Shown here piece by piece: positions 1 to 64,000 of a DNA stretch of 64,000 nucleotides; positions within the stretch are counted from its first letter, which is position 1, and every line of letters begins with the position of its first letter. Source of the DNA: Leucoraja erinacea (taxonomy: Eukaryota). Made by a program: the position numbers and the translations under genes. The notes under the pieces were generated by a model that had not been told where the DNA came from, did no database searches, and saw only the letters and a program-made list of their open reading frames with translations. Location: assembly GCF_028641065.1 (NCBI RefSeq), contig NC_073383.1:23870001-23934000 (forward strand), given 5' to 3'.

Positions 1-499
1 AAGCCCGTCCCAGGACGCGTTGCGGCATACTTCAAAGCAGCGGTGTGGAATCACAGATAGACACAAGTATTTGAAGTAACATAGTAAAGAACAAAGAGAC
101 ATCAATTATCAGTTTGATCCATGTAATGAGGGTGGGAGCGGAGGGCACGTAAACCCTCATCGTAACTCCTCATAAAATACAGATCAAACTTCAAACTGGT
201 AAGTTCTCGTTTAATCTTACTATTTTACTTCGGAGTCACGTGAGTGATTCCGTGAAGATTTCAAAGCTCTGTGATTGCAAACCGTGTAACAGTTATACTA
301 CACTCACTGCCGAAGTCTTTGAGGGAGGAAGTGTGTATCGTAACCAACCAATGATTCTGTTATAGAAACCCCAATGGTATTTTACAATAGACACTGAAGA
401 AATTTAAATGCTCCCTTTGGCTAATTTGAATATTTGCAGATTGGAATCTTTCCTGCAAATGAAAAAACAGGTTTTGTCAACAGTTTATAATAAATTATT

Positions 500-2610
500 T
501 CTCTGAACGTTTTACCCCCACTATTCTGCTGGAGCCAGGATGTGGTTTATAGGTACGTCCATTCTTTTGCCGTTGACGTGGAAGCTTCTCCTGTGGGATG
601 ACAACTTTATACATGTTAGTTTTATCCCAGGAGCTTTAACCTGCTTGAGCCATTTCAAAAAGGCTTGTTACCCGACCACAAGGTTTTTTGTGACCAACCC
701 ACAAGGCTTTTCATCTCCCTCGCATAATTAGGTTGTGTCTGTAGGTTTACCTGTAAGGTAAAAAAGGGTCTTGGTACATTACCGTGTTTTCTGGCGGGTA
801 AGCCCGGATTTTATGACTGGATAAGGTATTCCTGGTCTGGTTTGACCATTCCCTGGACAAATGATAGAGATCTGGTCTGAAGCTGTGAGCATGGTGTCCA
901 GTTGAAATAGGAGTAGTGACTGGACCCTCTGTGCTGCTCAGTGTGCCTTCAACATATGTTTTTAGTGCATAGAAGGTTCAGGTTTAGGGCTCTGGCTGGT
1001 GAGTATCCCCTGAAGTATGGTTAACCATTGTGACATCCCAACATATGGGTGTACTTGGTCTAGGGCTTTAGAGTTTAATACCCTTCAAATTTACCCCCAG
1101 CCAGTAACCCATACCTGTTGTCCTGTAGCTGTTTTGAAAAGAACAGTCAGGGCAATTCTAGCTGTGTTGATGGTACTGTAGCCGAATCCTTCATCGTGAT
1201 GACGGTTCTCCAGGAATTCCAGTTTGTAGTACCTGTATCGGATGAGTAGGTTTTCCCTGTATCCTTGCAGCACTTCTGTTGATGCTGGACAAGTGTTGTA
1301 GTCCAGTGAATGTTCAAAAGGATGCTGACATGGTGTTGATTGTTCAGTATAACAATCCCAGTCCCAGAGGCTTGCGCAGAATCTGCAGCTCAGGAGCTTA
1401 TTTTCTCATGGCACAGTTGATTTGTGCCCGGCTCCGATTGTTAATAATCCTGGGTACTGGAAAAACTCCATGCAAGTTGATTGTTCAGTATAACAATCCC
1501 AGTCCCAGAGGCTTGCGCAGAATCTGCAGCTCAGGAGCTTATTTTCTCATGGCACAGTTGATTTGTGCCCGGCTCCGATTGTTAATAATCCTGGGTACTG
1601 GAAAAACTCCATGCAAGTTCCAACAATCATGTCATAGCGTAAGTTCTGAAACAGAATCCTTTTGTACTGTGCGTTGTTCTCGATTGGTGAGGCAGAAGGG
1701 AAAAAATACATAGAATTAATTTCACCAATGCAACATGAACGCATTTGTCTATCAATATTATAAATATATTGTTGAATGACAACATGACCTATAGGTCAGA
1801 AAAGTTAATATATATAGCTGACAAGCTTTCTGCTGGAACTATCTGTCCCAGAGAATTTTTTTTATATATATGAGGATTCCACTGCCCCAGGGTCTGGTTT
1901 CCCCCCGCGACATACATAGGACATCCCCGAACCTCTGGTGATATAGCATTGATGCAAATAATCGATATCAGATTCACATTCCATTTTAATTGTCATTGTC
2001 AGTGTGCAGTACAGAGACAATGAAATGCATCGTATAGCTTGATAGTTTTGTTAAACTTTATATGAAAACATCTACTTGATGTTGTCCTTAATTTTTTGTG
2101 ACCTGGTGTCTGTCACTGTATTTTGCTTACCAGGCAGGTAAGTTGTTGATAGTCCAATACCTCTATGGATATACCATTGCCAAATTGTTTTGACCAACTT
2201 GTCATATGATACCGACTTTATGCTGCCATATGGTTAATATAGGCCACCTCCATAGTGTAGTCTATTTATACCCATACATGCAAGTGCTTAAACTCATGAA
2301 TTTCACCCGAGCATTTTTAGATACTTAATGCCCAGTGTAAGTGGTAACCCCACCACTGTCTTTCTGATATTATTTCAGTCGGTAACTTCATGAGATGCTC
2401 AATGACAACCTATATGTTGTTCTTGATACTAACATCTGAATCATGTAGACAGAAAATGGTACCATTTTCCCCCAATTACTCTGTTATTTGTCGAGTAGTT
2501 GGTAGTTTGACCATTAATTTGTTCCTTGTTTGTGCCAATTCAACTATGTTGTCTCTTGGCAATATTATAGTTACGTGGACTGAATTAATATGAAAGCCAA
2601 GATAGTCCAA
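500..2610 (-). pseudogene. Decayed DIRS RT C-terminus/RNase H/methyltransferase/tyrosine recombinase
   Basis: Fragments such as DYLGF (~2595-2610), HHDEGFGYSTINTAR (ORF 1091-1273) and WDVTMV correspond to DIRS-C at 61239-63394. Many stops and frameshifts. Confidence 0.75.
1335..1619. repeat. Exact tandem duplication, 141-bp unit x2
   Basis: gttgattgttcagtataac...ccatgcaa occurs at 1335 and 1476. It is visible as a 47-aa repeat in ORF 1279-1713. Confidence 0.95.
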
Positions 2611-2658
2611 GAAAGCGCTCTATATGCTGGTAGGAACCAGACCCACCTACCTCCATGG

Positions 2659-3573
2659 TTATTGGCGGGGTTGTGATTTTTTCTTTCTGAGTGTTCTTCC
2701 CTGTCGATGTGCTGGCGATGTTGGGGGGAGGCGCATTTTCCAGGGGGTCCGCTGCAGGCCCTGACCTAAAAAAGGTCTCTGGGGATAGTGCGGCCCACAG
2801 CTTTGACCAGTCGGATGTTCGGGCCGCCGACTGGTAGATACAGTGGTGTGCTGCCGCCTGGGTGGAATGAAGAGCTTTGGTATGTTCACTGCCGGTGGTG
2901 CCCTCATGAGGCTAAAGGTCTTGGACGCCTCCTCCATCTCTTTGAGCTGTTTGTTCAAGTCCTTCCCAAATAAGAATGAGTCGGTCTCTACTGATGGAGT
3001 TTTGCATAAACCTGCAAATTTAGGATTGAGGGCCGGCTTGATGTTGTCTCTTCTTAGGTTATCCAACTCATATTGTGTCGTGCACATGAGTGCCAGGACA
3101 TCCTGTTGGTGAGTGGTCATCTCTACGGTCTCGACTCCCCGCGCATAGGCTTTTATAGCTGCCGTGAGGAGGCGAAGTATGCGCTGTAGTGTGACCTCCT
3201 CTCTCCGAATCTGTCCGTGCAGAGGTTTGTTGGAGAGATGATTTATGCTGGCAGCCATCCTTGGCTCCAGCGGTGCTCCAACCCGTGGGGTAGCGACAAA
3301 GCGGCTTACAACCCCTAGCAGCTCTTCCTGCACACCCTGCTCTCTTTCGGCTCCTTCCGCCTGCCCCATACTCAGACCAGCCTGCCCCTGGTCACCAATG
3401 CTAACCTCCCATTCCTGGTCCGAGGTCGCAAAGGGAGGTGCCGGACTCAGCACCATGGAGGGGGCGCCTGTCCTGTCTGTCCGAGAGCGCTGCTGCTCTC
3501 GGTAGACCATCCCCTCCAATAGCTGCTGGATGCAGCTTAGGCGGCTGTCTCTCCCCCGCTTTGGGGTGGACAT
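2659..3573 (-). CDS. DIRS ORF1 (gag-like) protein, 304 aa
   Basis: Open ORF in the ORF1 position of DIRS-A. Motif LDNLRRDNIKPALNPKFAGLCK...FLFGKDLNKQLKEMEE is typical of animal DIRS gag. Confidence 0.75.
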   Translation of the reverse strand: MSTPKRGRDSRLSCIQQLLEGMVYREQQRSRTDRTGAPSMVLSPAPPFATSDQEWEVSIGDQGQAGLSMGQAEGAEREQGVQEELLGVVSRFVATPRVGAPLEPRMAASINHLSNKPLHGQIRREEVTLQRILRLLTAAIKAYARGVETVEMTTHQQDVLALMCTTQYELDNLRRDNIKPALNPKFAGLCKTPSVETDSFLFGKDLNKQLKEMEEASKTFSLMRAPPAVNIPKLFIPPRRQHTTVSTSRRPEHPTGQSCGPHYPQRPFLGQGLQRTPWKMRLPPTSPAHRQGRTLRKKKSQPRQ

Positions 3574-4631
3574 TTCCCCCCTCCGACGAGTCGGAGACGA
3601 CCGGCCGTTTGGCTTCCTAGCCCCTTTCCCAGTCCGCCGTGTAGGCTCTGGCGAGACTGGCTTGGCTCGGTCTCAGGGATAGCGAAAAACGCTCTGCGAG
3701 CGACGCTGCCGCCGGTTGCTGCCCCGCTGGTATAGTTGGAGCGGGGCAGTACCTCTTTGCAAGTTTTGCGTTGTGTTCCTGAACTATGTAATAAAACCAC
3801 AACTGCAAACTTACCTTTGGAATGCCCAAGAGCTGCTCCTGTAGTTCAGGCGGCTGTCTCTCCTCCTCCTGGGTGGAGAGACTTCCCAGTCCGATGTTGG
3901 CTCCACCGCCGGGTTTTCCACACATCCAGCCCGTTGCTCAGGCGCTAGCGGGCTGGCTAGGTCCCGGTGTCGGGTTTGTGGATCGCCCCTAAGCGGTCCT
4001 ACCACCTGTCGCTGCCCAAAGACGCCGTTTCGTCGGGCAGGTGCAGCATTTCCCTCCCAGCCCGCAGCTGATGCTGACGGGCTTGGTACAGAGTCGGGAG
4101 CGGGGCGCTGATTAGCGGTCCTCCCCTCTCTCTCTCTCTCCTCGGGCTGCTGCACTCGGGCTGCAGCGCACTCCACGCCAGCACTGCTCCGTGGGTCCCC
4201 TTAACGGCTCCAGCAAAAGTCGGAAGCCTCCTCCCGCCCGCCTGCCTGCCTCACCTGGACAGTCCTTGAGGGCGAGGGAGGACTGAGGGGAACCCCAGCG
4301 CAGTGCTAGCCCCGCGCCGATGTCGCCCCTGAGGACAGCTTACCGGCACCCGCACCATGGTTCGCCGGTGAGTCCTAGTTGCGTCTTCCTCCCCTCCCGA
4401 CAACGGAAAAACTCCTCCCGGAGTCCAAGGGGCCGCTTGCATGCCCTGCAGGGAACAAGCAGACGCAAAGGCTGTAAAGTAAAGGTAAGTACTTACCTAA
4501 ACTTTAGCTTTTCTCGTTTCTGCGGGAGCCCTGTCTCCCGCGCTGCCGCTTGGCCTGCTGAAACGTAATGCCGCAACGCGTCCTGGGACGGGCTTCTTCA
4601 CGGAATCACTCACGTGACTCCGAAGTAAAAT

Positions 4632-5335
4632 CAGTTACAAACAGCCACTCAAAAAAGTGACAGTCCAGACCATCTCTAGATGGCTAAAACAGGTCCTAAT
4701 AAAGGCTGGAGTAGACACTAGGATTTTTAAATCTCACTCCACCAGGGCTGCAGCTACATCGGCAGCTATGAAGTTGGATGTTCCTATGGACCAAATCCTC
4801 AAGACAGCAGGATGGTCAACGGAGAAAACTTTCCAACGATTTTATAACAAACCAGTCATTGAACCTGGAACATTTGCAGAAACAATTTTAAGTTCTGTAA
4901 TATAATTTTACCCCATAAATAGGGGCTATAATTTGGTGTTAATATATTTATCATTGGGTTTTCAATATCGTATTGATGTCTAATGATGTTAACACTATTC
5001 TCCCCATAATCAAGGCAGATGTGATGCATGGACTCGTTTCCACGGCATGAAATCAGAGCTTTAAAATCTTCACGTAGTCACTCACGTGACTCCGAAGTAA
5101 AATAGTAAGATTAAACGAGAACTTACCAGTTTGAAGTTTGATCGTTATTTTATGAGGAGTAACGTTGAGGGATTACGTGCCCTCCGCTCCCACCCTTGAT
5201 CATATACTCAACTGGTATATCTTCTCTAATCTTACTATGTTTAGTCATTACAGTTATCTGTGATTTCACACCGCTGCTTTGAAGAATGACACGCATGCGT
5301 CCTGGCGGGGTTCTTCACGTAATCCCTTAACGTTT
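4632..5335 (+). mobile_element. 3' part of a second DIRS (DIRS-B): YR C-terminus, ICR, truncated right ITR
   Basis: ORF 4657-4905 has YR catalytic motifs HSTRAAATS, AGWS and TFQRFYNKP. ICR at ~5068-5178 (gtaaaatagtaagattaaacgagaac). Partial ITR at ~5270-5335. Confidence 0.9.
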
Positions 5336-14940: not shown

Positions 14941-15153
14941 TGTAGTGGCCTGGTCAAGGTCAGGAAAAGACCGGACGCCAGGCGGATTCAAAAGAAGCTT
15001 TTTTTATTAACCCAGTTTTCGAACACCAACCGACACTCTTATATCTACCCCTGGGGAGTCGACCGGGAAACCCCGTGGCAGACCTACGCCCCTGTCCCTC
15101 AATCGTCGAGGGGAATGATCCAAGGAGTGGCCTACCCCCCAGGGACCGCCACA
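14941..15153 (-). repeat. 3' LTR (213 bp)
   Basis: Differs from the other LTR by one substitution (ggacgcc/ggacacc) and one T in a homopolymer. Confidence 0.97.
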
Positions 15154-15159
15154 GGACCC

Positions 15160-18100
15160 CCCCCAAGTACCCGAGGTACGAAACGGACAGGACGGCGTAC
15201 ACGACGGCCAGACCCGGTGCACACTACGCTCGGACCCGGAACAGGCGCCTGATTAACAAGTGCGGGGTACGAAGTAACCAAAGGAGGAGGTACCCTAGAC
15301 AGAGGTCGCCCCCGCTTACGGGGCAGCGCTACCAGCGCCGGCCGATCGATATCGATATGTGCTGGCTTCAACCGCGCAACTGAAACAGTCTCCCGCCGAC
15401 CCCCCATGTCCAGGACGAACGTCGACGAGCCCTGTTCCAAGACCCGGAAGGGGCCTTCATACGGCCGCTGTAGAGGTGTCCGATGTGCATCCCTGCGCAG
15501 AAAAAAACAAACTGGCAGTCCTCCAGAGCAGAGGGAATGTGCGGACGGAAGGACCCATGACGAGAAGTGGGCACCGGCGCCAGCTTGCCCACCGTCTGCC
15601 GAAGACGTTGCAGAGCTTCTGAAGGCTGCTCCACCTGGCCACGTGCCGGCGGGATGAACTCCCCAGGCACCGTTAACGGAGACCCATACACCAACTCAGC
15701 GGAGGAGGAGGCCAAGTCCTCCTTGGGTGCGGTGCGTATCCCCAGCAAAACCCACGGTAGAGCGTCTACCCAATCTGGGTCAGTGAGCCGCGCCCTTAGG
15801 GCACCCTTAAGCTGTCGGTGAAACCGTTCCACTAGGCCGTTCGACTGTGGGTGGTACGCTGTCGTGTGGTGCAGACGAACACCCAGGAGGCGTGCCATGG
15901 CCGACCACAGCTCTGACGTGAACTGAGGCCCCCGGTCGGATGTTATGTCCAGTGGAACCCCGAACCGGGCGATCCAGTGCGCCAACAATGCTCGAGCACA
16001 GGTAGTAGTGGTGGAATTCTGTAGCGGAATGGCTTCAGGCCACCGCGTGAAGCGGTCCACAACGGTAAATATATACGTCATGCCCTGGGACGACGGCAGC
16101 GGCCCCACGATGTCCACGTGAATGTGGTCGAAACGTTTATGAGGAATGGGGAACTCCTGCAATGGCGCGTGCACGTGTCGTTGCACCTTGGCGGTCTGGC
16201 ATCGGATGCAAGTGCGCGCCCAATGCCCAACCTCCTTCCGCAGCCCGTGCCACATAAAGCGGGAGGCTACCAGGGCCATTGTTGCCCTGATGGAGGGATG
16301 CGCAAGGCCATGGAGCACCTCAAACACCCTGCGCCGCCAGGCGATCGGGACGATGGGTCGCGGAACTCCAGAGGAGACATCGCACAACAGCGTGGTACCC
16401 CCAGGACCACAGACAACGTCCTCCAACTGCAGGCCCGAAACTGCTGTACGATAGGCAGCCATCTCCTCGTCGACCAGCTGAGCAGCTGCCAGGTCGGAAT
16501 AGTTAATCCCCTCACCGACTTGGAGAACCGCGTGGACTGCAGGTCTTGATAAGGCATCGGCCACCCTGTTAAATTTGCCCTCAATGAACCGGATGGAGGT
16601 GGTGTACTCGGACACATACGCCAACTGCCTCTGCTGCCGGGCAGACCACGGGTCTGATACCTTGGCGAACGCGAAGGTTAGCGGCTTGTGGTCCGTGAAT
16701 GCAGTAAATGGTCTCCCCTCCAGAAAATAGCGGAAATGGCGTACGGCGAGATATAGGGCAAGGAGCTCACGGTCGAAGGCGCTGTAACGACGCTGTGGTC
16801 CACTGAGATGCCTGCTGAAGAAGGCAAGTGGCCGCCAGCAACCCTCAATGAGCTGCTCTAACACTGCCCCAACCGCAATCTCCGAAGCATCCACCGTCAA
16901 GGCGGTCGTGGCATCCTCTCGTGGGTGGACGAGCATCGTGGCCTCAGCCAGTGCCTGCTTAGCCGTCTCAAATGCCGCTGTTGCTTCCATGGACCAATCA
17001 ACCTCCCTGCGATGACCAGCAATCAGGTTGAAAAGCGGACGCATGATCGCAGCCGCTGAGGGCAGGAAGCGGTGATAGAAAGTGACCATTCCCACGAATT
17101 CCTGCAGGCCCCTAACTGTGGTCGGACGGGGAAACCTGCGGATAGCGTCTACCCTGGTCGGCAGAGGCACCACCCCTTGTTCGGTCACGCGGTGGCCGAG
17201 GAAGGTGGCCGAGGAAGTCGTTTATAGTCAAACCGAAATCGCTGAGGCGCTGACACAGTTGACGGAGGTGGGAGCAGTGCTCCTGCCGCGTGCGACTGGC
17301 CACGAGTATGTCGTCCAGGTACACAAAAACAAAGTCCAATCCGCGGCACACGCAGTCCATAAGCCGCTGAAAGGCCTGCGCGGCGTTCTTCAACCCAAAC
17401 GGCATCCGCACAAATTCGAAAAGACCAAATGGTGTGATAATGGCCGTCTTCGGGATATCGTCGGGGCGGACTGGGATTTGATTGTACCCTCGCACGAGGT
17501 CCACCTTGGAAAATACGGATTGCCCCAGCCAGATGGGCATTGAAGTCCTGAATGTGCGGGACCGGATACCTGTCGGCGACGGTCGCATCATTCAGGCGCC
17601 GGTAATCGCCACACGGGCGCCAGCCCCCGTCCTTCTTAGGGACCATGTGGAGCGGTGAGGCCCATGGGCTATCGGATGGACGCACGATGCCCAACGCCTC
17701 CATCTGGCGGAACTCCTCCCGAGCTAGACGGAGCTTGTCTGGGGCGAGACGACGTGCCCGGGCGTGCACAGGTGGGCCAGTAGTCGGGATATGGTGCTCC
17801 ACCCCGTGCTTCGGGGTGGAGGAGTGGAAGTGGGGTTCGAGAATGCTAGGAAAATCTGCCAGGATACGCGCGAAAGTCGCATCCACGGATGACAGGGGGC
17901 CATCAGGGCGTACTACAGGATCACCTGTACGGAGGAAGACTGGCTCCAGCGTGGCTGAGTGCATCAGGCGCCGCCGCTTGACATCCACGAGCAGTGAATG
18001 GGCTCTAAGGAAGTCGGCGCCCAGCAGCGGCTGGGAAACGTCTGCAATGACGAACCTCCACGAAAACGAGTTGCGGCCAAAGTTGAGGGGAATGGTGCGA

Positions 18101-18312
18101 AACCCGTAGGTGCGAATAGCACTCCCGTTTGCCGCGGTGAGGAGGGGGCCTTGTTTGCCCGCCCGGATGTCAGTGATGGAGGGAGGCAGAACACTCACTT
18201 CCGCACCCGTGTCGACGAGGAAACGTCCCCCACTGCGGCGATCCCATGCGAAAACGCGATGAATCGTGCCGGCCGCCGAAGGAATCGCTGACGGCCGGCC
18301 CTTTAGTTTCCC
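15160..18312 (-). pseudogene. pol: Gypsy pol (protease-RT-RNase H-integrase), frameshifted
   Basis: FLVDTGAE protease, YLDD RT, TVDAS/AFDRELLA RNase H, HHCC zinc finger and D,D35E integrase (HVDIVG, SDRG, GLVER), split across ORFs 17185-18645, 17112-17591, 15368-17188 and 15132-15440. Confidence 0.92.
18265..18312 (-). promoter_or_regulatory. -1 programmed ribosomal frameshift signal (G GGA AAC + hairpin)
   Basis: Slippery heptamer at 18312-18306, 6-nt spacer, then a 10-bp stem GCCGGCCGTC/GGCGGCCGGC. Pol is in the -1 frame. Confidence 0.8.
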
Positions 18313-19115
18313 GAGAACGAACAGGGTGGGCGACAAAGCCTGGCTGCAGCTCCCCAGCGGCGATGATAATAACACCAACCAGCTTTGCTGGCGTCTGGTT
18401 GAACTGCAAGCCGATTTGGCTGGTTTGAACGCTAGCGACCTCTGCTGGCATTGGTTTGAACTGCAGGCTGGCCGTGCTGGAAGGACGTGCCTGCTGCTGA
18501 ATGCGTAATGGCCGCCGGATTTTGCCGCGGGGGCCGACCGGGAGCAGTGGAGACGCGGTGGATAGCGGTCCCGACCTGCTCTGAGTCTCCAAACGACTCG
18601 GGAAGGACGTCCACTGCTTCCAGGTTGCGATGGCGAGAATTCCACAGCTCGTCGGCATGTTCACCCAGCGCCAGCATGTCGGTAAACGGGTCCCTGGCGA
18701 GCTGCATGCGAATGTCGGGAGGCAGCTGCTGCAGGTAGGCATACTTAAAGAGAAAGCACGGCTCATGGTCCCCCATTAGGGTGAGCATGTCTTCCAGGAG
18801 GGCAGACGGCTGGCGGTCGCCCAGGCCGTCCATTCTGAAAATGCGAGCTGCCCGCTCGGCATCACCCAGGCCAAACCTCCTGATTAGAAATGCTTTAAGG
18901 CCAGCATATTTGTTTGTTACCGGGGGGGCCCTGAGGAAAGGCTTAACCCGCCTCGCGGTCAGTTGGTCAAGCGAGCCAACCACGTAATAGTACTTCGTCT
19001 CATCCTGCGTGATACCTCGCACAGCAAACTGGGCCTCTGCCTGCTGGAACCAGGTTTCGGGTTCTTCAGTCCATAGAGTTGGGAGCTTCAGCGCAACAGC
19101 GTTATTATTCATCAC
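18303..19115 (-). pseudogene. gag: Gypsy gag (CsRn1-type) with one in-frame TAG at 18432-18434
   Basis: N-terminus AVALKLPTLWTEEPETWFQQAEAQF. The same frame resumes after the TAG to [19 protein letters not shown] (CHCC motif) and ends at GGA AAC TAA. Confidence 0.85.
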
Positions 19116-19132
19116 GACGCGTGATGAACGAA

Positions 19133-19145
19133 GTCGGGGTCACCA
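19133..19145 (-). promoter_or_regulatory. Primer binding site complementary to tRNA-Trp 3' end
   Basis: Minus strand TGGTGACCCCGAC, one base after the LTR, complementary to ...GUCGGGGUCACCA. Confidence 0.85.
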
Positions 19146-19146
19146 G

Positions 19147-19358
19147 TGTAGTGGCCTGGTCAAGGTCAGGAAAAGACCGGACACCAGGCGGATTCAAAAG
19201 AAGCTTTTTTATTAACCCAGTTTTCGAACACCAACCGACACTCTTATATCTACCCCTGGGGAGTCGACCGGGAAACCCCGTGGCAGACCTACGCCCCTGT
19301 CCCTCAATCGTCGAGGGGAATGATCCAAGGAGTGGCCTACCCCCCAGGGACCGCCACA
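19147..19358 (-). repeat. 5' LTR (212 bp)
   Basis: Direct repeat of 14941-15153, followed on the minus strand by the PBS. Confidence 0.97.
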
Positions 19359-55890: not shown

Positions 55891-57756
55891 GCACATAAAT
55901 GTTAAGCTGTGGCACCAAATGTACTTTGCATCCAGCCTGCCAGTTGTATAGAGGTCCGAGCCTTTATATAGAGCTAGCCCATTTGTTTGAATTAGATTGC
56001 TGCATCTGAATCAGCTTCAGAATCAAGACCTACATGCAATGAATCCCATGAAGCCTTATATAAGCAAGTGTTGCCACAGGAAAACAGTAGATGGCAATTC
56101 AGATTCAGCCTATTTATACGTGAGTAGCCAAAACATTTGAGAAATTTGCTGCAATGTGAAATTAGTTGATGGAAAACAAATGTTCACTCATTTTCTACAT
56201 TTTATTGTTAATAATTGATCAAATTATCTTTTAAACCTTGTTAAAGTGATTGGATATAGCATGGAAGAAGGCTGTTCAGCCATTTATGTTCCTACTCTTT
56301 GAAGAGCATTCCCACGTCATTCCCAATAGTTAACCAATTCCTTCTGAAAGTCCTGATTTTAACTTTCATCCACTTTACAGGTAATATTCATTCTATCTGT
56401 GAATTAGACTTAGCCTTACATGGCTTTATCTTCCCATTTAAATATGTTTGCCCTGGTCACTGCAAGAACCACTAATTTACATTATCTAAATTCTTCATGA
56501 TCATGTAAACCTCTATCAAATCCCAACAAGCTTCTTTGTTTTAAAAGTAACAACTCTTATCTTGTCTCTTATCTTTTGTTAATGTGCCATTGTAACAACA
56601 TATCAAATAGATCAGGGATATTAGTTTTTTTCATGTGTAGAAGGATGCAGGTGATGTTTTGGAACCCTTCTACAGACTGAGAGTCAGGGGAGAGGGAAAC
56701 TAGAGATATGAAAAGTTACAGAACATGTCATAGCCTTTCTTCATTCCATAAATCATGTAAAAAGGTGAACTATATATTCATCATTTAAAATTATAAACAT
56801 GCTAACTTTTGCAGATCTTCTGAGATAATGAAGTGCTTAAAAAAAACACAAGTTATTGGATTCATCTTTTTTCTTTTGTTCATGCAGGCAAATCCGCTGG
56901 CTTTCAACTGAAATAGTGCAGATTTTGTGACCGATTGCAACACAAGGTTGCAAATAAAAAACAATCTTGGATTTCAATTCTTTCTGTTGCAAATGATACA
57001 ACAGCAGTTATGTGTTTGCCATCCGCATTGACTGGGGACAAGCTTAGAAAAGACTAGTGGGTGTTTGAATAATCTTGATCTGAATGATGTCTGCAGAATA
57101 CATAACCATTATTTACACACTATACTATATATCAAGACAACTAAACATTTCATTTCACATTTCTTTCCTTTCTAAACTGGAAGTAATAATTAAGCAGTTT
57201 AATAAAGCTACTACGTAGTGCCAGGGATGAAGTTTCCATCCTAACTTCGGATGTTGTCTGTGTGGAGCCTTCTCCCTGTGGCCACACCAGTTTCCTCTGG
57301 TGCAGCGTCTTTCCCCAACATCCCATAGATGTGGGTTGCTATGTTAATTGTCTACTATGAATTGCATCAAGCATCTTGGTGACTGGTAGAATCTGGACAG
57401 GGTATTGAAAATGTCATAGATAGAGTCGTACAGCATGGAAACAGGCCCTTTAGCCCAACTTGCCCACACCGACCAAAATTTTATCCATCAATACTAGTCC
57501 CACCTGCCTGTTTTTGGTCCATAGACCGCCAAACCTGTTCTATCCATGTACCTGTCTAATTGTCTCTTAAACAATCTTGGATTTCAATTCCTTTTGTTAC
57601 AAAGGATACAACAACAGTTATGTGTTTGCCATTTGCATTGACTGTGGACAGGCTTAAAGACAGTCCCTGTCTCAACTACCTCCTTTGGTAGCTCATACCA
57701 TACACCCAGCACCCTTTTAATTCCTATTAAATCTTTCCCCCTTCACTTTAAACATA

Positions 57757-59543
57757 CAGTGCCCTCCATAATGTTTGGGACAAAGACCCATCATTTATTT
57801 ATTTGCCTCTGTACTCCACAATTTGAGATTTGTAATAGAAAAAAATCACATGTGGTTAAAGTGCACATTGTCAGATTTTAATAAAGGCCATTTTTATACA
57901 TTTTGGTTTCACCATGTAAAAAATACAGCCTTGTTTATATGTAGTCCCCCCATTTCAGGGCACCATAATGTTTGGGACACATGGTTTCACGGGTGTTTGT
58001 AATTGCTCAGGTATGTTTAATTGCCTCCTTCATGCAGGTATAAGAGAGCTCTCAGCCCTTAGTCTTTCCTCCAGTCTATCCATCACCTTTGGAAACTTTT
58101 ATTGCTGTTTATCAACATGAAGACCGGGGTCAAGGAAAGAGTGTTCACGTCGCGGCCCTGTTTCTACCATGACACAGAAGAAACACAAGAAGCGACAAGA
58201 CAGACACCATCATTTACAGATGCCGAGAAGTGTGTTCCGCTCTGGCTGAACAACTTATAATCTTGTGTGCGGACTCGAGAAGAAGAACATGAGGACCAAA
58301 GTTGTGCCAATGAAGTCAAAGAAGCCATTATGTGACTGAGAAACAATAATAAAACTGTTAGAGACATCAGCCAAACCTTACGCTTACCAAAATCATCTGT
58401 TTGGATCATCATTAAGAAGAAAGAGAGCACTGATGAGCTTACTAATCGCAAAGGGACTGGCAGACCAAGGAAGACCTCCACAGCTGATGACAGAAGATTT
58501 TGCTTTATAATAAAGAAAAATCCCCAATCACCTGTCCGACAGATCAGGAACACTCTTCAGGTGTGGATTTATCAATGACCGCTGTCCGCAGCAGACTTCA
58601 TGAACAGAAATAGAGGATACACTGCAAGATGCAAACCACAGGTTAGCCGCAAAAATAGGATGGCCAGGTTGCAGTTTGCCAAGAAGTAATTAAAAGAGCA
58701 ACCACAGTTCTGGAAAAAGGTCTTGTGGACAGATGAGACGAAGATTAACTTATATCAGAGTGATGGCAAGAACAAAGTATGGAGGAGAGAAGGAACTGCC
58801 CAAGATCCAAAGCATACCACCTCATCTGTGAAACACGGTGGTGGGGGTGTTATGGCCTGGGCACGTATGGCTGCTGAAGGTACTGGCTCACTTATCTTCA
58901 TTGATGATAGCATAATGAATTCTAAAGTGTATTGACAGATCCTATCTACTCAAGTTCAAACAAATGCCTCAAAACTCATTGGCTGGCGGTTCATTCTACA
59001 GCAAGACAATGATCCTAAACATACTGCTAAAGCAACAAAGGAGTTTTTCAAAGCTAAAAAATGGTCAATTCTTGAGTGGCCAAGTCAATCACCCGATCTG
59101 AACCCGATTTGAGCATGCCTTTTATATGCTGAAGAGAAAACTGAAGGGGGCCAGCCCCCAAAACAAGCATAAGCTAAAGATGGCGACAATACAGGCCTGG
59201 CAGAGCATCACCAGAGAACTGGTGATGTCCATGAATCGCAGACTTCAAGCAGTCATTGCATGCAAAGGAAATGCAACAAAATACTAAGCATTATTGCTTT
59301 CATTTACAAGACATTGCTGTGTCTCAAACATTATGGTGCCCTGAATTGGGGGGACTATGTATAAACACTGCTGTAATTTCTACACGGTGAAACCAAATTG
59401 TATAAAAATGACCTTTATTAAAATCTGACAATGTGCACTTTAACCACGTGTGATTTTTTTTCTATTACAAATCTCAAATTGTGGAGTACAGAGGCAAATA
59501 AATAAATGATGGGTCTTTCTCCCAAACATTATGGAGGGCACTC
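57757..59543 (+). mobile_element. Tc1 transposon, IR/DR type, full length, decayed DD34E transposase
   Basis: ~225-bp TIRs, each with two ccataatgtttgggaca repeats. [32 protein letters not shown] and [11 protein letters not shown] motifs with stops and frameshifts. Confidence 0.95.
58126..58285 (+). mobile_element. 160-bp retroposed insertion (possibly RTE-clade 3' end)
   Basis: 12-bp TSD aacatga(a/g)gacc and a (gaa)3 tail. Confidence 0.6.
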
Positions 59544-60653
59544 TATGTCCTCTGGTTCTCGATTCTCCTACTCTGGGCAAGAGACTCTGTGTGTCTACCC
59601 GAACTATTCCTCTCATGATTTTATACATGATTTTATACACCTCTATAGAATCACCCCTCACCCTCCTGCACACCCCAGGGCCCTACCATTCACTGTGTAG
59701 TTTCTGCCCATGTTAGACTTTCCAAAATACAACACCTCACATTTCTCTGTATTGAATTCCATCAACCATTCCGCAGCCCACCTGCCACTTGATCAAGATC
59801 CTGTTGCAATTTTTGAGGTTCATCTTGAGTATCTTCAATACCACCCACTTTTGTATCATCTGCAAACTTGCTAGTCTTGCCATGTACATTCTCATGCAAA
59901 TCATGGATACAGATGACAAACAGTAATGGGTCCAGCACCAAACCCTGAGGCAAATCGCTAGTCACAGATCTCCAGTTCGAGAAGTAACCTTCCACCATCA
60001 CCCTCTGCTTTCTTCCATGAAGCCAATTTTCTATACATTCAGCTACCTCTCCTTGGTTCCCATCTAACCTTCCAGAGCAATCTACCATGTGGAACCTTGT
60101 CAAATGCTTTGCTGAAGTCCATATATACATCTACAACTTTGCTCTCATCAACCTTCTTGGTCACATCTTAAAAAACTCAATCAGATTTGTGAGACTCCCA
60201 TGTACAATACCATGTGGACTGTCCCTAATCAGCCATTGTCAATTTAAATGCATGTATATCCTATCCCTCAGAATACCATCTGGTAACTTTCCAACTAAAG
60301 ATGTTAAGCTCCATGGCCTATAGTTTCTAGCCTTTTCCCTGCAGCCCATCTTGAATGGAAGCACAACATTTGCCACCCTCCGGTCTTCTTGTATTTAATG
60401 ACGACTTGTAAATTTCATTCAGGGCTTCCGCAATTTCCTCTCTAGCTTCCCACGGATATATCGGATCTGGCCCAGGAGATTTGTCTACCTTCATGCGCGT
60501 CAGGATCTTCAGCACCTCTTCGACCGTAATACTGACAATGGCCTCATTTGAAGGAATTAAAATAAGGATTAGTGTAGAATTAGTGTAAACAGCTGGTTGA
60601 TGATCAATGTAGATTTGGTGGGCTGAGGGTGTGTTGTATATGTCTCCATTAGT

Positions 60654-60756: not shown

Positions 60757-61238
60757 AATAGTAAGCTTAAACGAGAACTTACCAGTTTGAAGTTTGATCT
60801 TTATTTTATGAGGAGTTACGATGAGGGATTACGTGAAGACCCCGCCAGCACGCATGCGCGACATTCTTCAAAGCAGTGGTGTGGAATCACAGAACACAGT
60901 AATTCAAATAAACATAGTAAAGATAAGAAGAACTAGGATACCAGTTGACCTTTATAATTGAGGGTGGGAACAGAGGGCACGTAATCCCTCATCGTAATCC
61001 CTCATGAAACTGGTAAGTTCTCGTTTAATCTTACTATTTTACTTTGGAGTCACGTGAGTGACTACGTGAAGATTTTAAAGCTCTGTGATTTGAAGCCGTG
61101 TAACAGTGCCGAGTCATCCAAGGGAAGAAGTATGTTATCGTAATTAAACATGAATCAGTTTTTTTTAAACTATAACAATATTTATTTTAAACAAAGAAAA
61201 TAACGCTCCCCTGGGCTTAAATTATATATTTGCAGAAT

Positions 61239-62208
61239 TTAAAATCCTTTCTGCAACAATGCAGGTTTGGCAATCGGCTTATTATTATAACGTTTGGAAA
61301 GTTCTTTCCGTGGACCACCCCGCTGTTGCCAGGATATGGTCCATTGGTACGTCCATATTCCTAGCCGCCGATGTTGCTGCTGCCCTGGTGGAGTGAGATT
61401 TAAAAATGTCAGTATCCACCCAGCAGCTCCCAATACCTGTCTGAGCCATCTTGAGATGGTTTGTACCGACACCCGACCATGTGGCTTTTTGAAGCTGACC
61501 CACAGTGCCTTTTCTCCCATCTCGGGATGCTTTGGTTGTGCTAAGATATAGCAGTAGATGTGGCATGACACATAAACGGGGGTCAGGTGGGTACGCCCGG
61601 AATTCCATTGTTAGGCCTGAAGTTCCCGGTCTGCTCTGCTTGACCAGCTCCCAGATTGTGAATGTAATTTGGTCAGCTGATATGACCATATTGTCCAGTC
61701 TTAGATGGTGTAGGGACTGGACCCTTTGGGCTGAGACTAAAGCCATCAGCATTACCGTTTTCAGGGTGAGCTGTTCCAGAGTCAGGGATCTGGCTGGTGA
61801 CCATCCCCTTAGAAATGACAGGACGACACTGACGTCCCAGATCTGGGTGTACCTTGGTCTAGGGGGGTTGGTATTAAAAATACCTTTCATTAGTTTGGCC
61901 ACCAGCGGATGTGATCGCATGGACTGTTGTCCTGGTGCCTGCCATAGATAGGCTGACAGAGCACTCCTAGCACAATTAATTGTGCTGTAACTCAGACCTT
62001 CATCGTAGTGAAGGCTGGACAGGAACTCCAATACGTTCGTTATTGTCGCTGTTCTATATGTCGCCCCAGTCCTCGAGCAGTATGCTTCCCACTTTCTGAT
62101 GCTGGAGAGGTACTGTTTCTTGGTGGACTGTCGGTAAGATGCCGTCATCATGTCCATGGACCTGTTTGATAGTCCCAGATCCAATAGTGGTCTTTTTAAA
62201 TTCTGCAA
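61239..62208 (-). pseudogene. DIRS tyrosine recombinase (frameshifted near the C-terminus)
   Basis: YSTINCARSALS, ALVSAQRVQ (catalytic R), HSTRAAATS and AGWSTERTF. Confidence 0.92.
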
Positions 62209-64000
62209 CCCAACAGATTTATTCTGTCATGGCACAGATGACTCTCGCCCGTAACAAGGTGGACCAACAGATCTGGTCTTCTGAGAATGGTCATGGGTGG
62301 TTCAGTGACCATGGCAAGGACCACAGGGAAGGCCAGCCGGGTACTACCAAAATACCTGAAGCTGAGTCCATTTGTATTTTGCGTAGGACCCGACTGATGA
62401 GGCAGAAAGGGGGAAAGGCATAGAAAAACAATTTTCCCCAATTCAGCGAGAAAGCGTCCATCGCTGCTGCCTCAGGGTCTGGTTCCCAAGCGAAATATGT
62501 TGGTAACTGGTGATTCAGTCGGGATGTGAAGAGATCGATATCTGGTGTTCCATATCGCTTTGTAATATCAGCAAATACTTTGGGGTTCAACATCCATTCG
62601 GTGTTGTCGTTGAATTTTCGTGACCTGGTGTCTGCCACTGTATTAAGCTTACCTGGTTGGTAAGTTGCTGATAGCCAAATATGTCTGTCGACACACCATT
62701 GACAGATTGTGTTGACCAGATTGTCACATGATATCGATTTTATTCCGCCCATATGGTTAATATAGGCCACCACTGTGGTATTGTCAATTTGTAGGCGGAC
62801 ATGCAAATGGTGCATAGCTGAACAGCAAGCTTTTAGCACATAAAACGCACCCAACATTTCTAAATAATTTATACCCAGTGTCTGTAGTAATGATGATTCT
62901 TGTATCTTCCATCTGCCATCAGTACTAGATATAGTGTTAGTTGCTCCCCAGCCTTGAGCACTAGTATCCGTTTGTATCGTGATTATTGGGTTATTGATAA
63001 TGATGGGGCTGGAACTATGCCAAATGTGTACTTTCCACCATTGTAATTCTGATATTGCTTTGGCTGGTAATTTCATGAGTCGATCGAAATGAACCGTATG
63101 TTGTTTTAGCGCTTGCACCTATGCTCTTTGTAAGTTTTGGTAATGCAAAGGTCCAAGCTGGGTAGCTGGAAATGCTGCTACTAATTTCCCAATTACTCTT
63201 GCCACCTGTCGAATAGTTGGTTGATTGGTAACCATCAATTTGTTGCAGGCTTGTACCAATTCTGCTGCTTTCTCTTTTGGCAATGTTACAGACATGTGGA
63301 CTGAGTTAATTGTGAATCCCAGATAGTCCATAGTTGTGGATGGTGTCCACTTAGATTTACCTGGATGGATAACAAACCCCAGAGTTTCAAACAATTGTTT
63401 AGTAGCTTATACTGTTGATTTAGCTAATTCCAGGGTTTTGCCCACTATTAAAATGTCATCAAGATACGCCATGACAATATGTTTTTGTTTTCTTAGTATT
63501 GCCAAGGCCGGTTTTAATATCTCGGTAAATAATCTTGGGGCTGATGTTAGGCCATTTGGCAATGCTTTATACTGCCATAGTTGCCTCATCCAGTTAAATT
63601 TTAGGTATCTACGATGATCCTTATGAATGGGTACTGAATAATATGCATCTTTGATATTGATGCATGCCATGAAGTATCCTCTAGAAATCAATTGTTTGGC
63701 AGTAACAAATGTTTCCATTTTGAAATGTATATACAGGACAAAAGTACTCAGTGTCGTCAAGTCAATGATGATGCGACATCCACCATCTTTCGTGGTTTTT
63801 GTAAAGATATTTGCTATAAATTCCAAGGGGTCATGTTCCGTTTTTTCTATGACTCCTTTTGTATGTAATCTCACCAGTTCAGCCTGTCCCTCGCATTTTT
63901 CTTTTCGTGAGAGGGTAAACTCCCTGTGGGGTGCATGCTGAACTGATGGCATATTTTTTTGAATGAATTCAATTTTGTATCCCTGAATACTTTGTAGTAT
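62196..64000 (-). pseudogene. DIRS RT-RNase H-methyltransferase polyprotein with a few stops/frameshifts
   Basis: CRIIIDL, KDAYYSVPI, LPNGLTSAPRLF, MAYLDD, QTDTS..GWG, INYLE, IDNTT, DIDLF and YAFPPF motifs. Confidence 0.92.

What the first reader, a model, noticed from the sequence alone, without database searches (positions are those of the whole stretch)
1..4631. DIRS with pristine termini and open gag but deleted RT and decayed recombinase: candidate gag-only non-autonomous DIRS family
Seen: the ITR (28/28) and the ICR-to-5'-end match (37/37) are perfect. They include a private variant (gattcc versus gactac in DIRS-B/C) present in both places. The 915-bp gag is open. The RT core appears deleted, since the start of pol joins DYLGF at ~2610-2630, and RH/MT/YR are heavily decayed. 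Known: DIRS replication copies the termini via the ICR, so matching termini date the last replication cycle. Inference: the element kept moving in trans after losing pol/YR while gag stayed intact, analogous to gag-only non-autonomous LTR elements.
Basis: partly seen in the sequence, partly recalled or inferred. Interest (0 to 1): 0.7.

Follow-up and report, generated by a model that had tools for sequence, protein, structure and literature searches.

The report
Non-autonomous DIRS with borrowed gag
This is one of hundreds of copies of a crippled jumping gene in a skate genome that likely moves on the enzymes of an intact relative, and its open gag gene is a shortened piece swapped in from that relative which has since decayed like a passenger, not a gene kept working by selection.

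Summary
In detail: termini match perfectly, the 915-bp frame is open, RT is deleted. The element runs 82 nt beyond the window start. It belongs to a real non-autonomous DIRS1-like family: 269 exact hits to the RT-deletion junction against 148 for the autonomous counterpart, with clean ATT-bounded ends. The gag-only reading fails. 24 of the first 50 junction copies carry an old gag, killed by shared lesions (23 stop after 11 codons), yet they spread. The other copies carry a 0.9-1.0 kb gag piece recombined in from the autonomous family (dS 0.004-0.09, backbone 0.65-0.98) and re-exchanged with at least three donor groups (one clade rejected, p-AU 7e-34). The window's frame lacks the native start, 74 N-terminal codons and 34 conserved core codons. 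Shared changes absent from autonomous copies are neutral-like (28 N:13 S; autonomous 55:112), and shared frameshifts spread in six- and four-copy groups. What stays matched to the helper is the 3' ICR module (mostly 95-100%). Value: genomic evidence that a whole DIRS cycle works in trans and that DIRS copies recombine. A sequence look-up found no earlier scan note on this DNA.

The parts
4568..4631 (-). 5' terminus: ATT (4631-4629), 37-nt end matching the left ICR (4595-4631) and 28-nt ITR core (4568-4595)
3734..4567 (-). Long 5' leader, about 650 nt longer than in the autonomous family, holding a decayed duplicate of the gag N-terminal region (3826-3877 is 78% like 3516-3570); four upstream ATGs out of frame with the gag frame
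3596..3733 (-). Remnant of the old gag N-terminus, about 80% like the autonomous gag, frameshifted, native ATG absent
3568..3596 (-). 5' crossover interval between old backbone and imported segment (one search prints coordinates 2 too high; corrected here)
2659..3573 (-). Open 304-codon frame: imported autonomous gag codons 75-412, with a 102-bp in-frame deletion at 3217/3218 that removes the conserved APxNC..L.V..N.QIW block
2642..2669 (-). 3' crossover interval, at the gag stop and pol start (coordinates corrected as above)
2610..2658 (-). pol start and RT deletion junction (net -737 nt, most of the RVT_1 domain); family marker with 269 exact genome hits
1480..2609 (-). Decayed RT C-terminus, RNase H and methyltransferase remnant (limits approximate), 71-75% like the autonomous family, lesions shared family-wide
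1968..2030 (-). 63-nt foreign insert (likely 3' tail of a high-copy retroposon) carried by 85 of 85 family copies and 0 of 52 autonomous copies
1335..1616 (.). 141-bp perfect tandem duplication shared by 19 of 85 family copies
415..1630 (-). Decayed tyrosine recombinase remnant (limits approximate), about 70% like the autonomous YR, many shared indels and stops
146..258 (.). ICR, 113 nt: 222-258 matches the 5' end, 146-224 matches the 3' extension, 222-224 is the ATT circular junction
1..300 (-). Part of the 3' cis module inside the window (ICR, spacer, right ITR 1-28); mostly 95-100% like the autonomous family except the ITR core (83-94%); it continues 82 nt left of the window (G000:C7:23869919-23870000)
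4632..5330 (+). Not part of the element: 3' part of another DIRS whose YR gene this copy interrupted at an AAT; the YR frame continues on the far flank

Best explanation
This is a young copy of a large, fully non-autonomous DIRS1-like retrotransposon family that is likely mobilised in trans by a co-resident autonomous DIRS family, and its open frame is a truncated gag segment recombined in from that family and now evolving neutrally. Shown: the family, its shared dead pol/YR and clean ends; the dead ancestral gag in about half the copies; the mosaic with sharp crossover intervals; repeated re-exchange with different donor groups; neutral-like change after import. Inferred: an old sister lineage lost RT and decayed, kept only its 3' ICR/ITR module matched to the active family, and has its RNA packaged, reverse-transcribed, circularised through the ICR and integrated at ATT by the helper's Gag, RT and YR. 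A double crossover in short homology patches at the two ends of gag replaced about 1 kb, likely by RT template switching between co-packaged RNAs; DNA-level gene conversion is not excluded. Once refreshed, the segment was similar enough to keep exchanging with autonomous copies, which repeatedly resets its decay.
For: Family: 269 exact junction hits vs 148 autonomous-counterpart hits, controls 0; both termini found in 57 of 60 and 35 of 40 loci, with differing flanks and ATT-type ends. Helper exists: 4.84-kb copies with gag 412 aa, pol and YR open. Dead ancestral gag: 24 of 40 position-ordered new loci (24 of the first 50 hits) have gag 24-28% from the window's while the first backbone kilobase is 3-7% away; 23 of 24 share a frameshift at codon 6 and stop after 11 codons; 142 exact hits to an old-gag marker. 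Mosaic: dS to autonomous L143 is 0.004-0.09 in gag vs 0.65-0.98 in pol/YR; all 61 refreshed copies switch state in the same two intervals; outside gag and the 3' module no 24-nt near-perfect patch exists. Re-exchange: refreshed gags as one clade rejected, p-AU 7e-34; vertical descent from the old gag rejected, p-AU 1e-4 (29 of 137 rows). Neutrality: shared changes absent from 52 autonomous copies 28 N:13 S, expected 70-76% N, p=0.6; autonomous 55:112, Fisher p=6e-5; window's clade 11:4. Shared frameshifts in the fresh gag: codon 75 in 6 copies, codon 184 in 4. 3' module mostly 95-100% like the helper vs 73-78% in the spacer for two other DIRS in the window. DIRS-1 RT acts in trans and the ICR is required (PMC7192593).
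Against: Pairwise dN/dS between sub-lineages is mostly 0.1-0.6; I attribute this to imported variants (29 N:50 S shared with autonomous copies), which is an inference. In the window's clade (38 copies) only 1 shared frameshift lies in codons 1-325 vs 4-5 in 900 nt of backbone; by hand about 1.6 are expected from the gag singleton rate, so the test is weak either way. The big shared deletion is in frame, and the imported piece begins at an ATG and ends at the stop. By my count, 32 of 61 refreshed copies have no frameshift or stop before codon 325 (sample biased to young copies). Only 52 of at least 148 autonomous copies were sampled, so some 'absent' variants may be unsampled imports. Recombination violates the tree model. 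No experiment shows trans mobilisation or identifies the helper.
Confidence: 0.85

Rival explanations
1. Semi-autonomous, gag-only family: the truncated Gag is made and helps the element in cis, at least in the window's clade, so the frame is held open by selection.
For: Frame open in many clade A copies, deletion in frame, only 1 shared frameshift in codons 1-325; import spans ATG to stop; pairwise dN/dS mostly 0.1-0.6; gag-only LTR families exist (PMC9744471, PMC13570524).
Against: Dead gag in 24 of the first 50 copies; clade A changes 11 N:4 S, several clustered in the conserved core; conserved 34-aa block and 74 N-terminal codons missing; shared frameshifts in clade B; ATG at nt 1057 behind four out-of-frame ATGs; breakpoints coincide with some of the few homology patches.
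Confidence: 0.07
2. The imported stretch is favoured as RNA, not protein: it holds a packaging or dimerisation signal matched to the current helper, so refreshed copies out-compete old-gag copies.
For: One refreshed lineage gave at least 112 copies; re-exchange with at least three donor groups; fewer terminal mismatches than old-gag copies, 1.18 vs 1.94 per 132 nt; the 3' 180 nt of gag is only 6-14% from the helper even in old-gag copies.
Against: Old-gag copies are as numerous (142) and include clusters 0.3% apart; deletions of 102, 96 and 79 nt are tolerated; the refreshed sample is biased to young copies; the conserved 3' stretch lies in the open gag/pol overlap, which may explain its slow change.
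Confidence: 0.2
3. Copies spread by segmental duplication or assembly artefact, or the window copy is a one-off decayed element.
For: One pair (L093, L094) shares flanks 49 kb apart.
Against: Copies lie on many contigs with different flanks and precise ATT-type ends; ITR core variants co-vary at both ends of each copy; contigs of independent runs under other organism labels span the RT junction.
Confidence: 0.01

Closest known systems
DIRS1-like tyrosine-recombinase retrotransposons (Piednoel et al. 2011, PMC3266345; passages read)
   Same: ITRs, two overlapping ICRs with a 3-nt circular junction, right extension, ATT ends; gag, RT/RH/MT, YR layout as remnants.
   Different: RT deleted and all enzyme genes dead in every copy examined; gag dead or truncated and imported.
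TOC1 of Chlamydomonas, a non-autonomous DIRS-order element (one passage in PMC9940879)
   Same: Non-autonomous YR retrotransposon that varies in copy number.
   Different: TOC1 is recalled as a split-direct-repeat (PAT-like) type, not tested here; this family is ITR/ICR type, full length, in a vertebrate, and mosaic.
Non-autonomous RLC_Angela of wheat (PMC9744471; passages read)
   Same: Full-length elements with wholly degenerate coding sequence that co-evolve with autonomous sub-families; the best functional analogue.
   Different: Copia LTR element using integrase; the passages seen describe no gag re-import.
TR-GAG and semi-autonomous gag-only LTR elements (Sabrina_SA, WHAM; PMC9744471, PMC13570524; passages read)
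   Same: An open gag-derived frame without RT or integrase in part of the family.
   Different: Here the frame is truncated, absent from half the family and neutral-like after import.
Non-autonomous pararetroviruses homogenised with partners by region-specific recombination (PMC5491270; abstract read)
   Same: Dependent element kept similar to its helper in defined regions by recombination.
   Different: There the shared part is a non-coding regulatory region in plant viruses; here a gag coding stretch and the 3' ICR module of a retrotransposon.

Membership tests
DIRS1-like retrotransposon | Inverted terminal repeats | tested here: met
   28/28 core, longer with the overlap into the ends
DIRS1-like retrotransposon | ICR complementary to both ends, overlapping on a 3-nt junction | tested here: met
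   37/37 and 79/79, overlap ATT at 222-224
DIRS1-like retrotransposon | Insertion at a trinucleotide equal to the junction, no target duplication | tested here: met
   ATT-type ends with differing flanks; window copy splits a YR frame at AAT
DIRS1-like retrotransposon | gag, RT/RH/MT and YR genes | tested here: met
   As remnants aligning to relatives whose ORFs hit RVT_1 (1e-16), Phage_integrase (6e-7) and Dam (weak, 0.004); the gag has no Pfam hit
Non-autonomous family | Many dispersed insertions sharing inactivating lesions | tested here: met
   269 junction hits; shared indels
Non-autonomous family | Intact partner in the same genome sharing cis ends | tested here: met
Non-autonomous family | Mobilisation in trans shown by experiment | not testable with these tools
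   inferred from copy number, lesions and ends
Gag-only (TR-GAG-like, semi-autonomous) element | Complete gag ORF | tested here: not met
   74 N-terminal and 34 core codons missing; native ATG motif in none of 85 family copies
Gag-only (TR-GAG-like, semi-autonomous) element | gag kept open across the family | tested here: not met
   11 of the first 50 junction copies have 290 or more open codons, vs 28 of 40 autonomous copies with 400 or more
Gag-only (TR-GAG-like, semi-autonomous) element | Purifying selection on gag within the family | tested here: not met
   28 N:13 S vs 55:112; 11:4 in the window's clade
Gag-only (TR-GAG-like, semi-autonomous) element | Gag protein expressed | not testable with these tools
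   no ribosome or peptide data; RNA reads could not be assigned to this genome's copies

The most novel reading that the evidence does not exclude
DIRS particles co-package two RNAs and their RT switches templates, as retroviruses do, and this parasite uses that to track its helper: it keeps the 3' ICR module matched and repeatedly re-imports the gag-region RNA because that stretch holds a packaging signal. The family would then map the cis signals of DIRS replication and show parasite-helper co-evolution by recombination in YR retrotransposons.
Probability: 0.2. Interest if true: 0.65.

Novelty: new variant of a known kind. Interest (0 to 1): 0.4.

Why it matters
DIRS replication is poorly understood. 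The one experimental paper read showed RT acting in trans but states that its assay could not tell whether the other proteins do (PMC7192593, section 21). A natural family with no working gene, at least as numerous as its helper and inserted cleanly at ATT, is genomic evidence that packaging, reverse transcription and YR integration all work in trans. What it keeps conserved (about 400 nt at the 3' end, ITR core free to drift if both ends agree) outlines the cis requirement. The sharp, repeated gag exchanges show that DIRS copies recombine. It is also a caution: an open gag with low pairwise dN/dS in a defective element can be a recent import, not selection.

Tried and rejected
Pairwise dN/dS as a test of selection: rejected, confounded by imports. 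The first 40 copies were picked by likeness to a query that includes the gag end and contain no old-gag copy; I therefore drew position-ordered samples. Rfam scan of 5 loci for snRNA cargo, prompted by earlier notes: one chance-level hit outside the element. Pfam on window frames: nothing significant inside the element. Back-transfer to autonomous copy L131: only 2 alleles shared widely with family copies, dropped. Nearest-neighbour age contrast (0.4% vs 0.9%): not used as evidence, because the refreshed group was sampled more densely. RNA: no RNA holder listed; raw RNA reads laid (X17, X21, X18) were from another organism label or other copies, many only 90-95% alike and on both strands, so no verdict on expression. 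Literature searches: no listed title or passage that I read described a vertebrate ITR/ICR non-autonomous DIRS family or gag exchange with a helper; most subscription papers and Repbase are outside the library, and I recall that Repbase may hold non-autonomous DIRS entries (not checked). No structure prediction was run.
Full report
Observation. On the minus strand the element starts at the ATT at 4631-4629. The ITR core 1-28 matches 4568-4595 at 28/28 and the left ICR 222-258 matches 4595-4631 at 37/37. The window begins inside the element: 82 more bases lie to the left, and this right extension matches ICR 146-224 at 79/79, so the element is 4,713 nt with both ATT. It split the YR gene of another DIRS at an AAT, and that frame continues across both flanks. 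The frame 3573-2659 is open for 304 codons. Named gag relatives are skate proteins.

A family, and its likely helper. A 401-nt query across the RT junction gave 40 of 40 scored matches at 96-100% over its full length. An exact 29-nt junction pattern has 269 hits and the matching undeleted pattern 148, controls 0; both are lower bounds. Both termini were found in 57 of 60 loci and in 35 of 40 further family loci, with differing flanks. The undeleted relatives are 4.84 kb with open gag (412 aa from its own ATG), pol and YR frames that hit RVT_1 and Phage_integrase. Against them the family has lost a net 737 nt of RT and carries dozens of indels in RH/MT/YR, many identical in all six copies aligned. 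All 85 family copies, and none of 52 autonomous ones, carry a 63-nt foreign insert.

The gag is not intact. The open frame is codons 75-412 of the autonomous gag. The native ATG motif is absent from all 85 family copies and the 140 nt upstream are frameshifted. A 102-bp in-frame deletion, seen in 31 copies, removes a block conserved in the five homologues aligned.

The gag is an import. My first sample was biased, so I took the next 40 junction hits in order of position. In 24 of them the gag region is 24-28% different from the window's while the first kilobase of backbone differs by 3-7%; with the 10 hits already fetched this is 24 of the first 50. These old gags are dead by shared lesions: 23 of 24 have a frameshift at codon 6 and stop after 11 codons, and the 24th is partly deleted. 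An old-gag marker has 142 exact hits. Old gag, pol and YR are all about equally far from the autonomous copy L143 (dS 0.58-0.98, dN 0.18-0.33), whereas refreshed gags are at dS 0.004-0.09. At diagnostic sites all 61 refreshed copies switch from old to autonomous state between 3596 and 3568 and back between 2669 and 2642, with 0-2 of 86 old alleles between (coordinates corrected by 2). In three old-gag copies, near-perfect patches of 24 nt or more occur only in gag and in the 3' module, so a double crossover could hardly land elsewhere. The 'gattcc' variant marks all 61 refreshed copies and no scored old-gag or autonomous copy, which points to one founding capture; 112 5' ends carry it. The segment was then exchanged again: groups of copies are nearest to different autonomous sub-groups, and a tree of 29 chosen rows rejects the refreshed gags as one clade (p-AU 7e-34) and rejects their descent with the old gag (p-AU 1e-4). 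Recombination strains that model, so I read it as support, not proof.

No sign of selection after import. Splitting variants resolves it: shared variants also found in autonomous copies are 29 N:50 S, while shared variants absent from all 52 are 28 N:13 S, matching the 70-76% N expected without selection (p=0.6) and unlike the autonomous 55:112 (Fisher p=6e-5). The window's clade gives 11:4 and clade B 9:4. Frameshifts in the fresh gag spread: codon 75 in six copies, codon 184 in four; shared indels in autonomous gags are all in frame. Only 11 of the first 50 junction copies have 290 or more open codons, against 28 of 40 autonomous copies with 400 or more. Against my reading: the window's clade shows just one shared frameshift before codon 325 (about 1.6 expected by hand), its deletion is in frame, and the import runs from an ATG to the stop. 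Weak selection in that clade is not excluded.

What is kept. The last 400 nt or so are mostly 95-100% like the autonomous family in old-gag and refreshed copies alike, except around the ITR core (83-94%), while two other DIRS in the window are 73-78% in the spacer. The ITR core differs between groups but agrees at both ends within a copy. This fits end restoration through the ICR, which is required for DIRS-1 transposition (PMC7192593, passages and section 21 read), and names the autonomous family as the likely helper. Perfect ends are usual in young copies; the window copy is 0.43% from its nearest relative.

Mechanism. Shown: shared dead enzymes, clean ends, mosaic structure, repeated exchange, neutral-like decay. 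Inferred: trans use of the helper's Gag, RT and YR, and template switching between co-packaged RNAs as the route of exchange; gene conversion between genomic copies is the alternative. Earlier scan notes on this genome report DIRS elements capturing snRNA pieces; I did not check them, and found no such cargo here. Contigs from runs under three organism labels span the RT junction, and one spans the 102-bp deletion with no difference, so the family may predate a species split; labels were not verified.

Known and new. Non-autonomous DIRS-order elements are known (TOC1; one passage in PMC9940879). Degenerate full-length partners and gag-only elements are known among LTR elements (PMC9744471, PMC13570524; passages), and recombination with a helper among pararetroviruses (PMC5491270; abstract). 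Seven searches showed me no report of this for ITR/ICR-type DIRS; PMC9210276 and PMC3266345 were read as passages only, and no supplements were read. Verdict: a real non-autonomous DIRS1-like family, not a gag-only one; moderate interest for DIRS mechanism.

Noticed in passing
window 1968-2030: 63-nt piece with AATTAAA and a degenerate microsatellite tail, very deep in reads: likely the 3' end of a LINE or SINE, carried as cargo by all 85 family copies.
   Followed up: partly
window 4632-5330 and the left flank of the element (L031): Host DIRS whose YR gene is split by the element; DIRS inserted in DIRS, opposite orientation.
   Followed up: partly
window 60757-64000: Another DIRS, 74% like the autonomous family over 3.3 kb, with ICR 95% alike; ICRs are conserved across otherwise distant families.
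   Followed up: partly
window 15000-19358: 154-bp perfect direct repeats around a GC-rich 4.3-kb stretch: looks like a young LTR or split-repeat element.
   Followed up: no
window 57752-59548: Inverted arms of 94 nt (98%) and 143 nt (92%) around 1.3-1.6 kb: possible non-autonomous DNA transposon.
   Followed up: no
window 4475-4506: Self-complementary stretch centred on ggtaagtacttacc, which reads as a splice-donor-like motif on both strands in the leader.
   Followed up: no
L039, L045-L047, L052, L055, L058, L060, L061, L068, L086; L049: Further mosaics within the family: clade A 5' half with a B-like YR region, and L049 with a B leader on an A backbone.
   Followed up: partly
L032, L074, L084, L121: Elements followed directly by the 5' end of another DIRS copy (tandem or nested at the junction sequence).
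   Followed up: no
P0002: A 659-aa annotated skate protein joins this gag core (89%) to other Pfam domains; possibly a gene-model artefact or an exonised gag.
   Followed up: no
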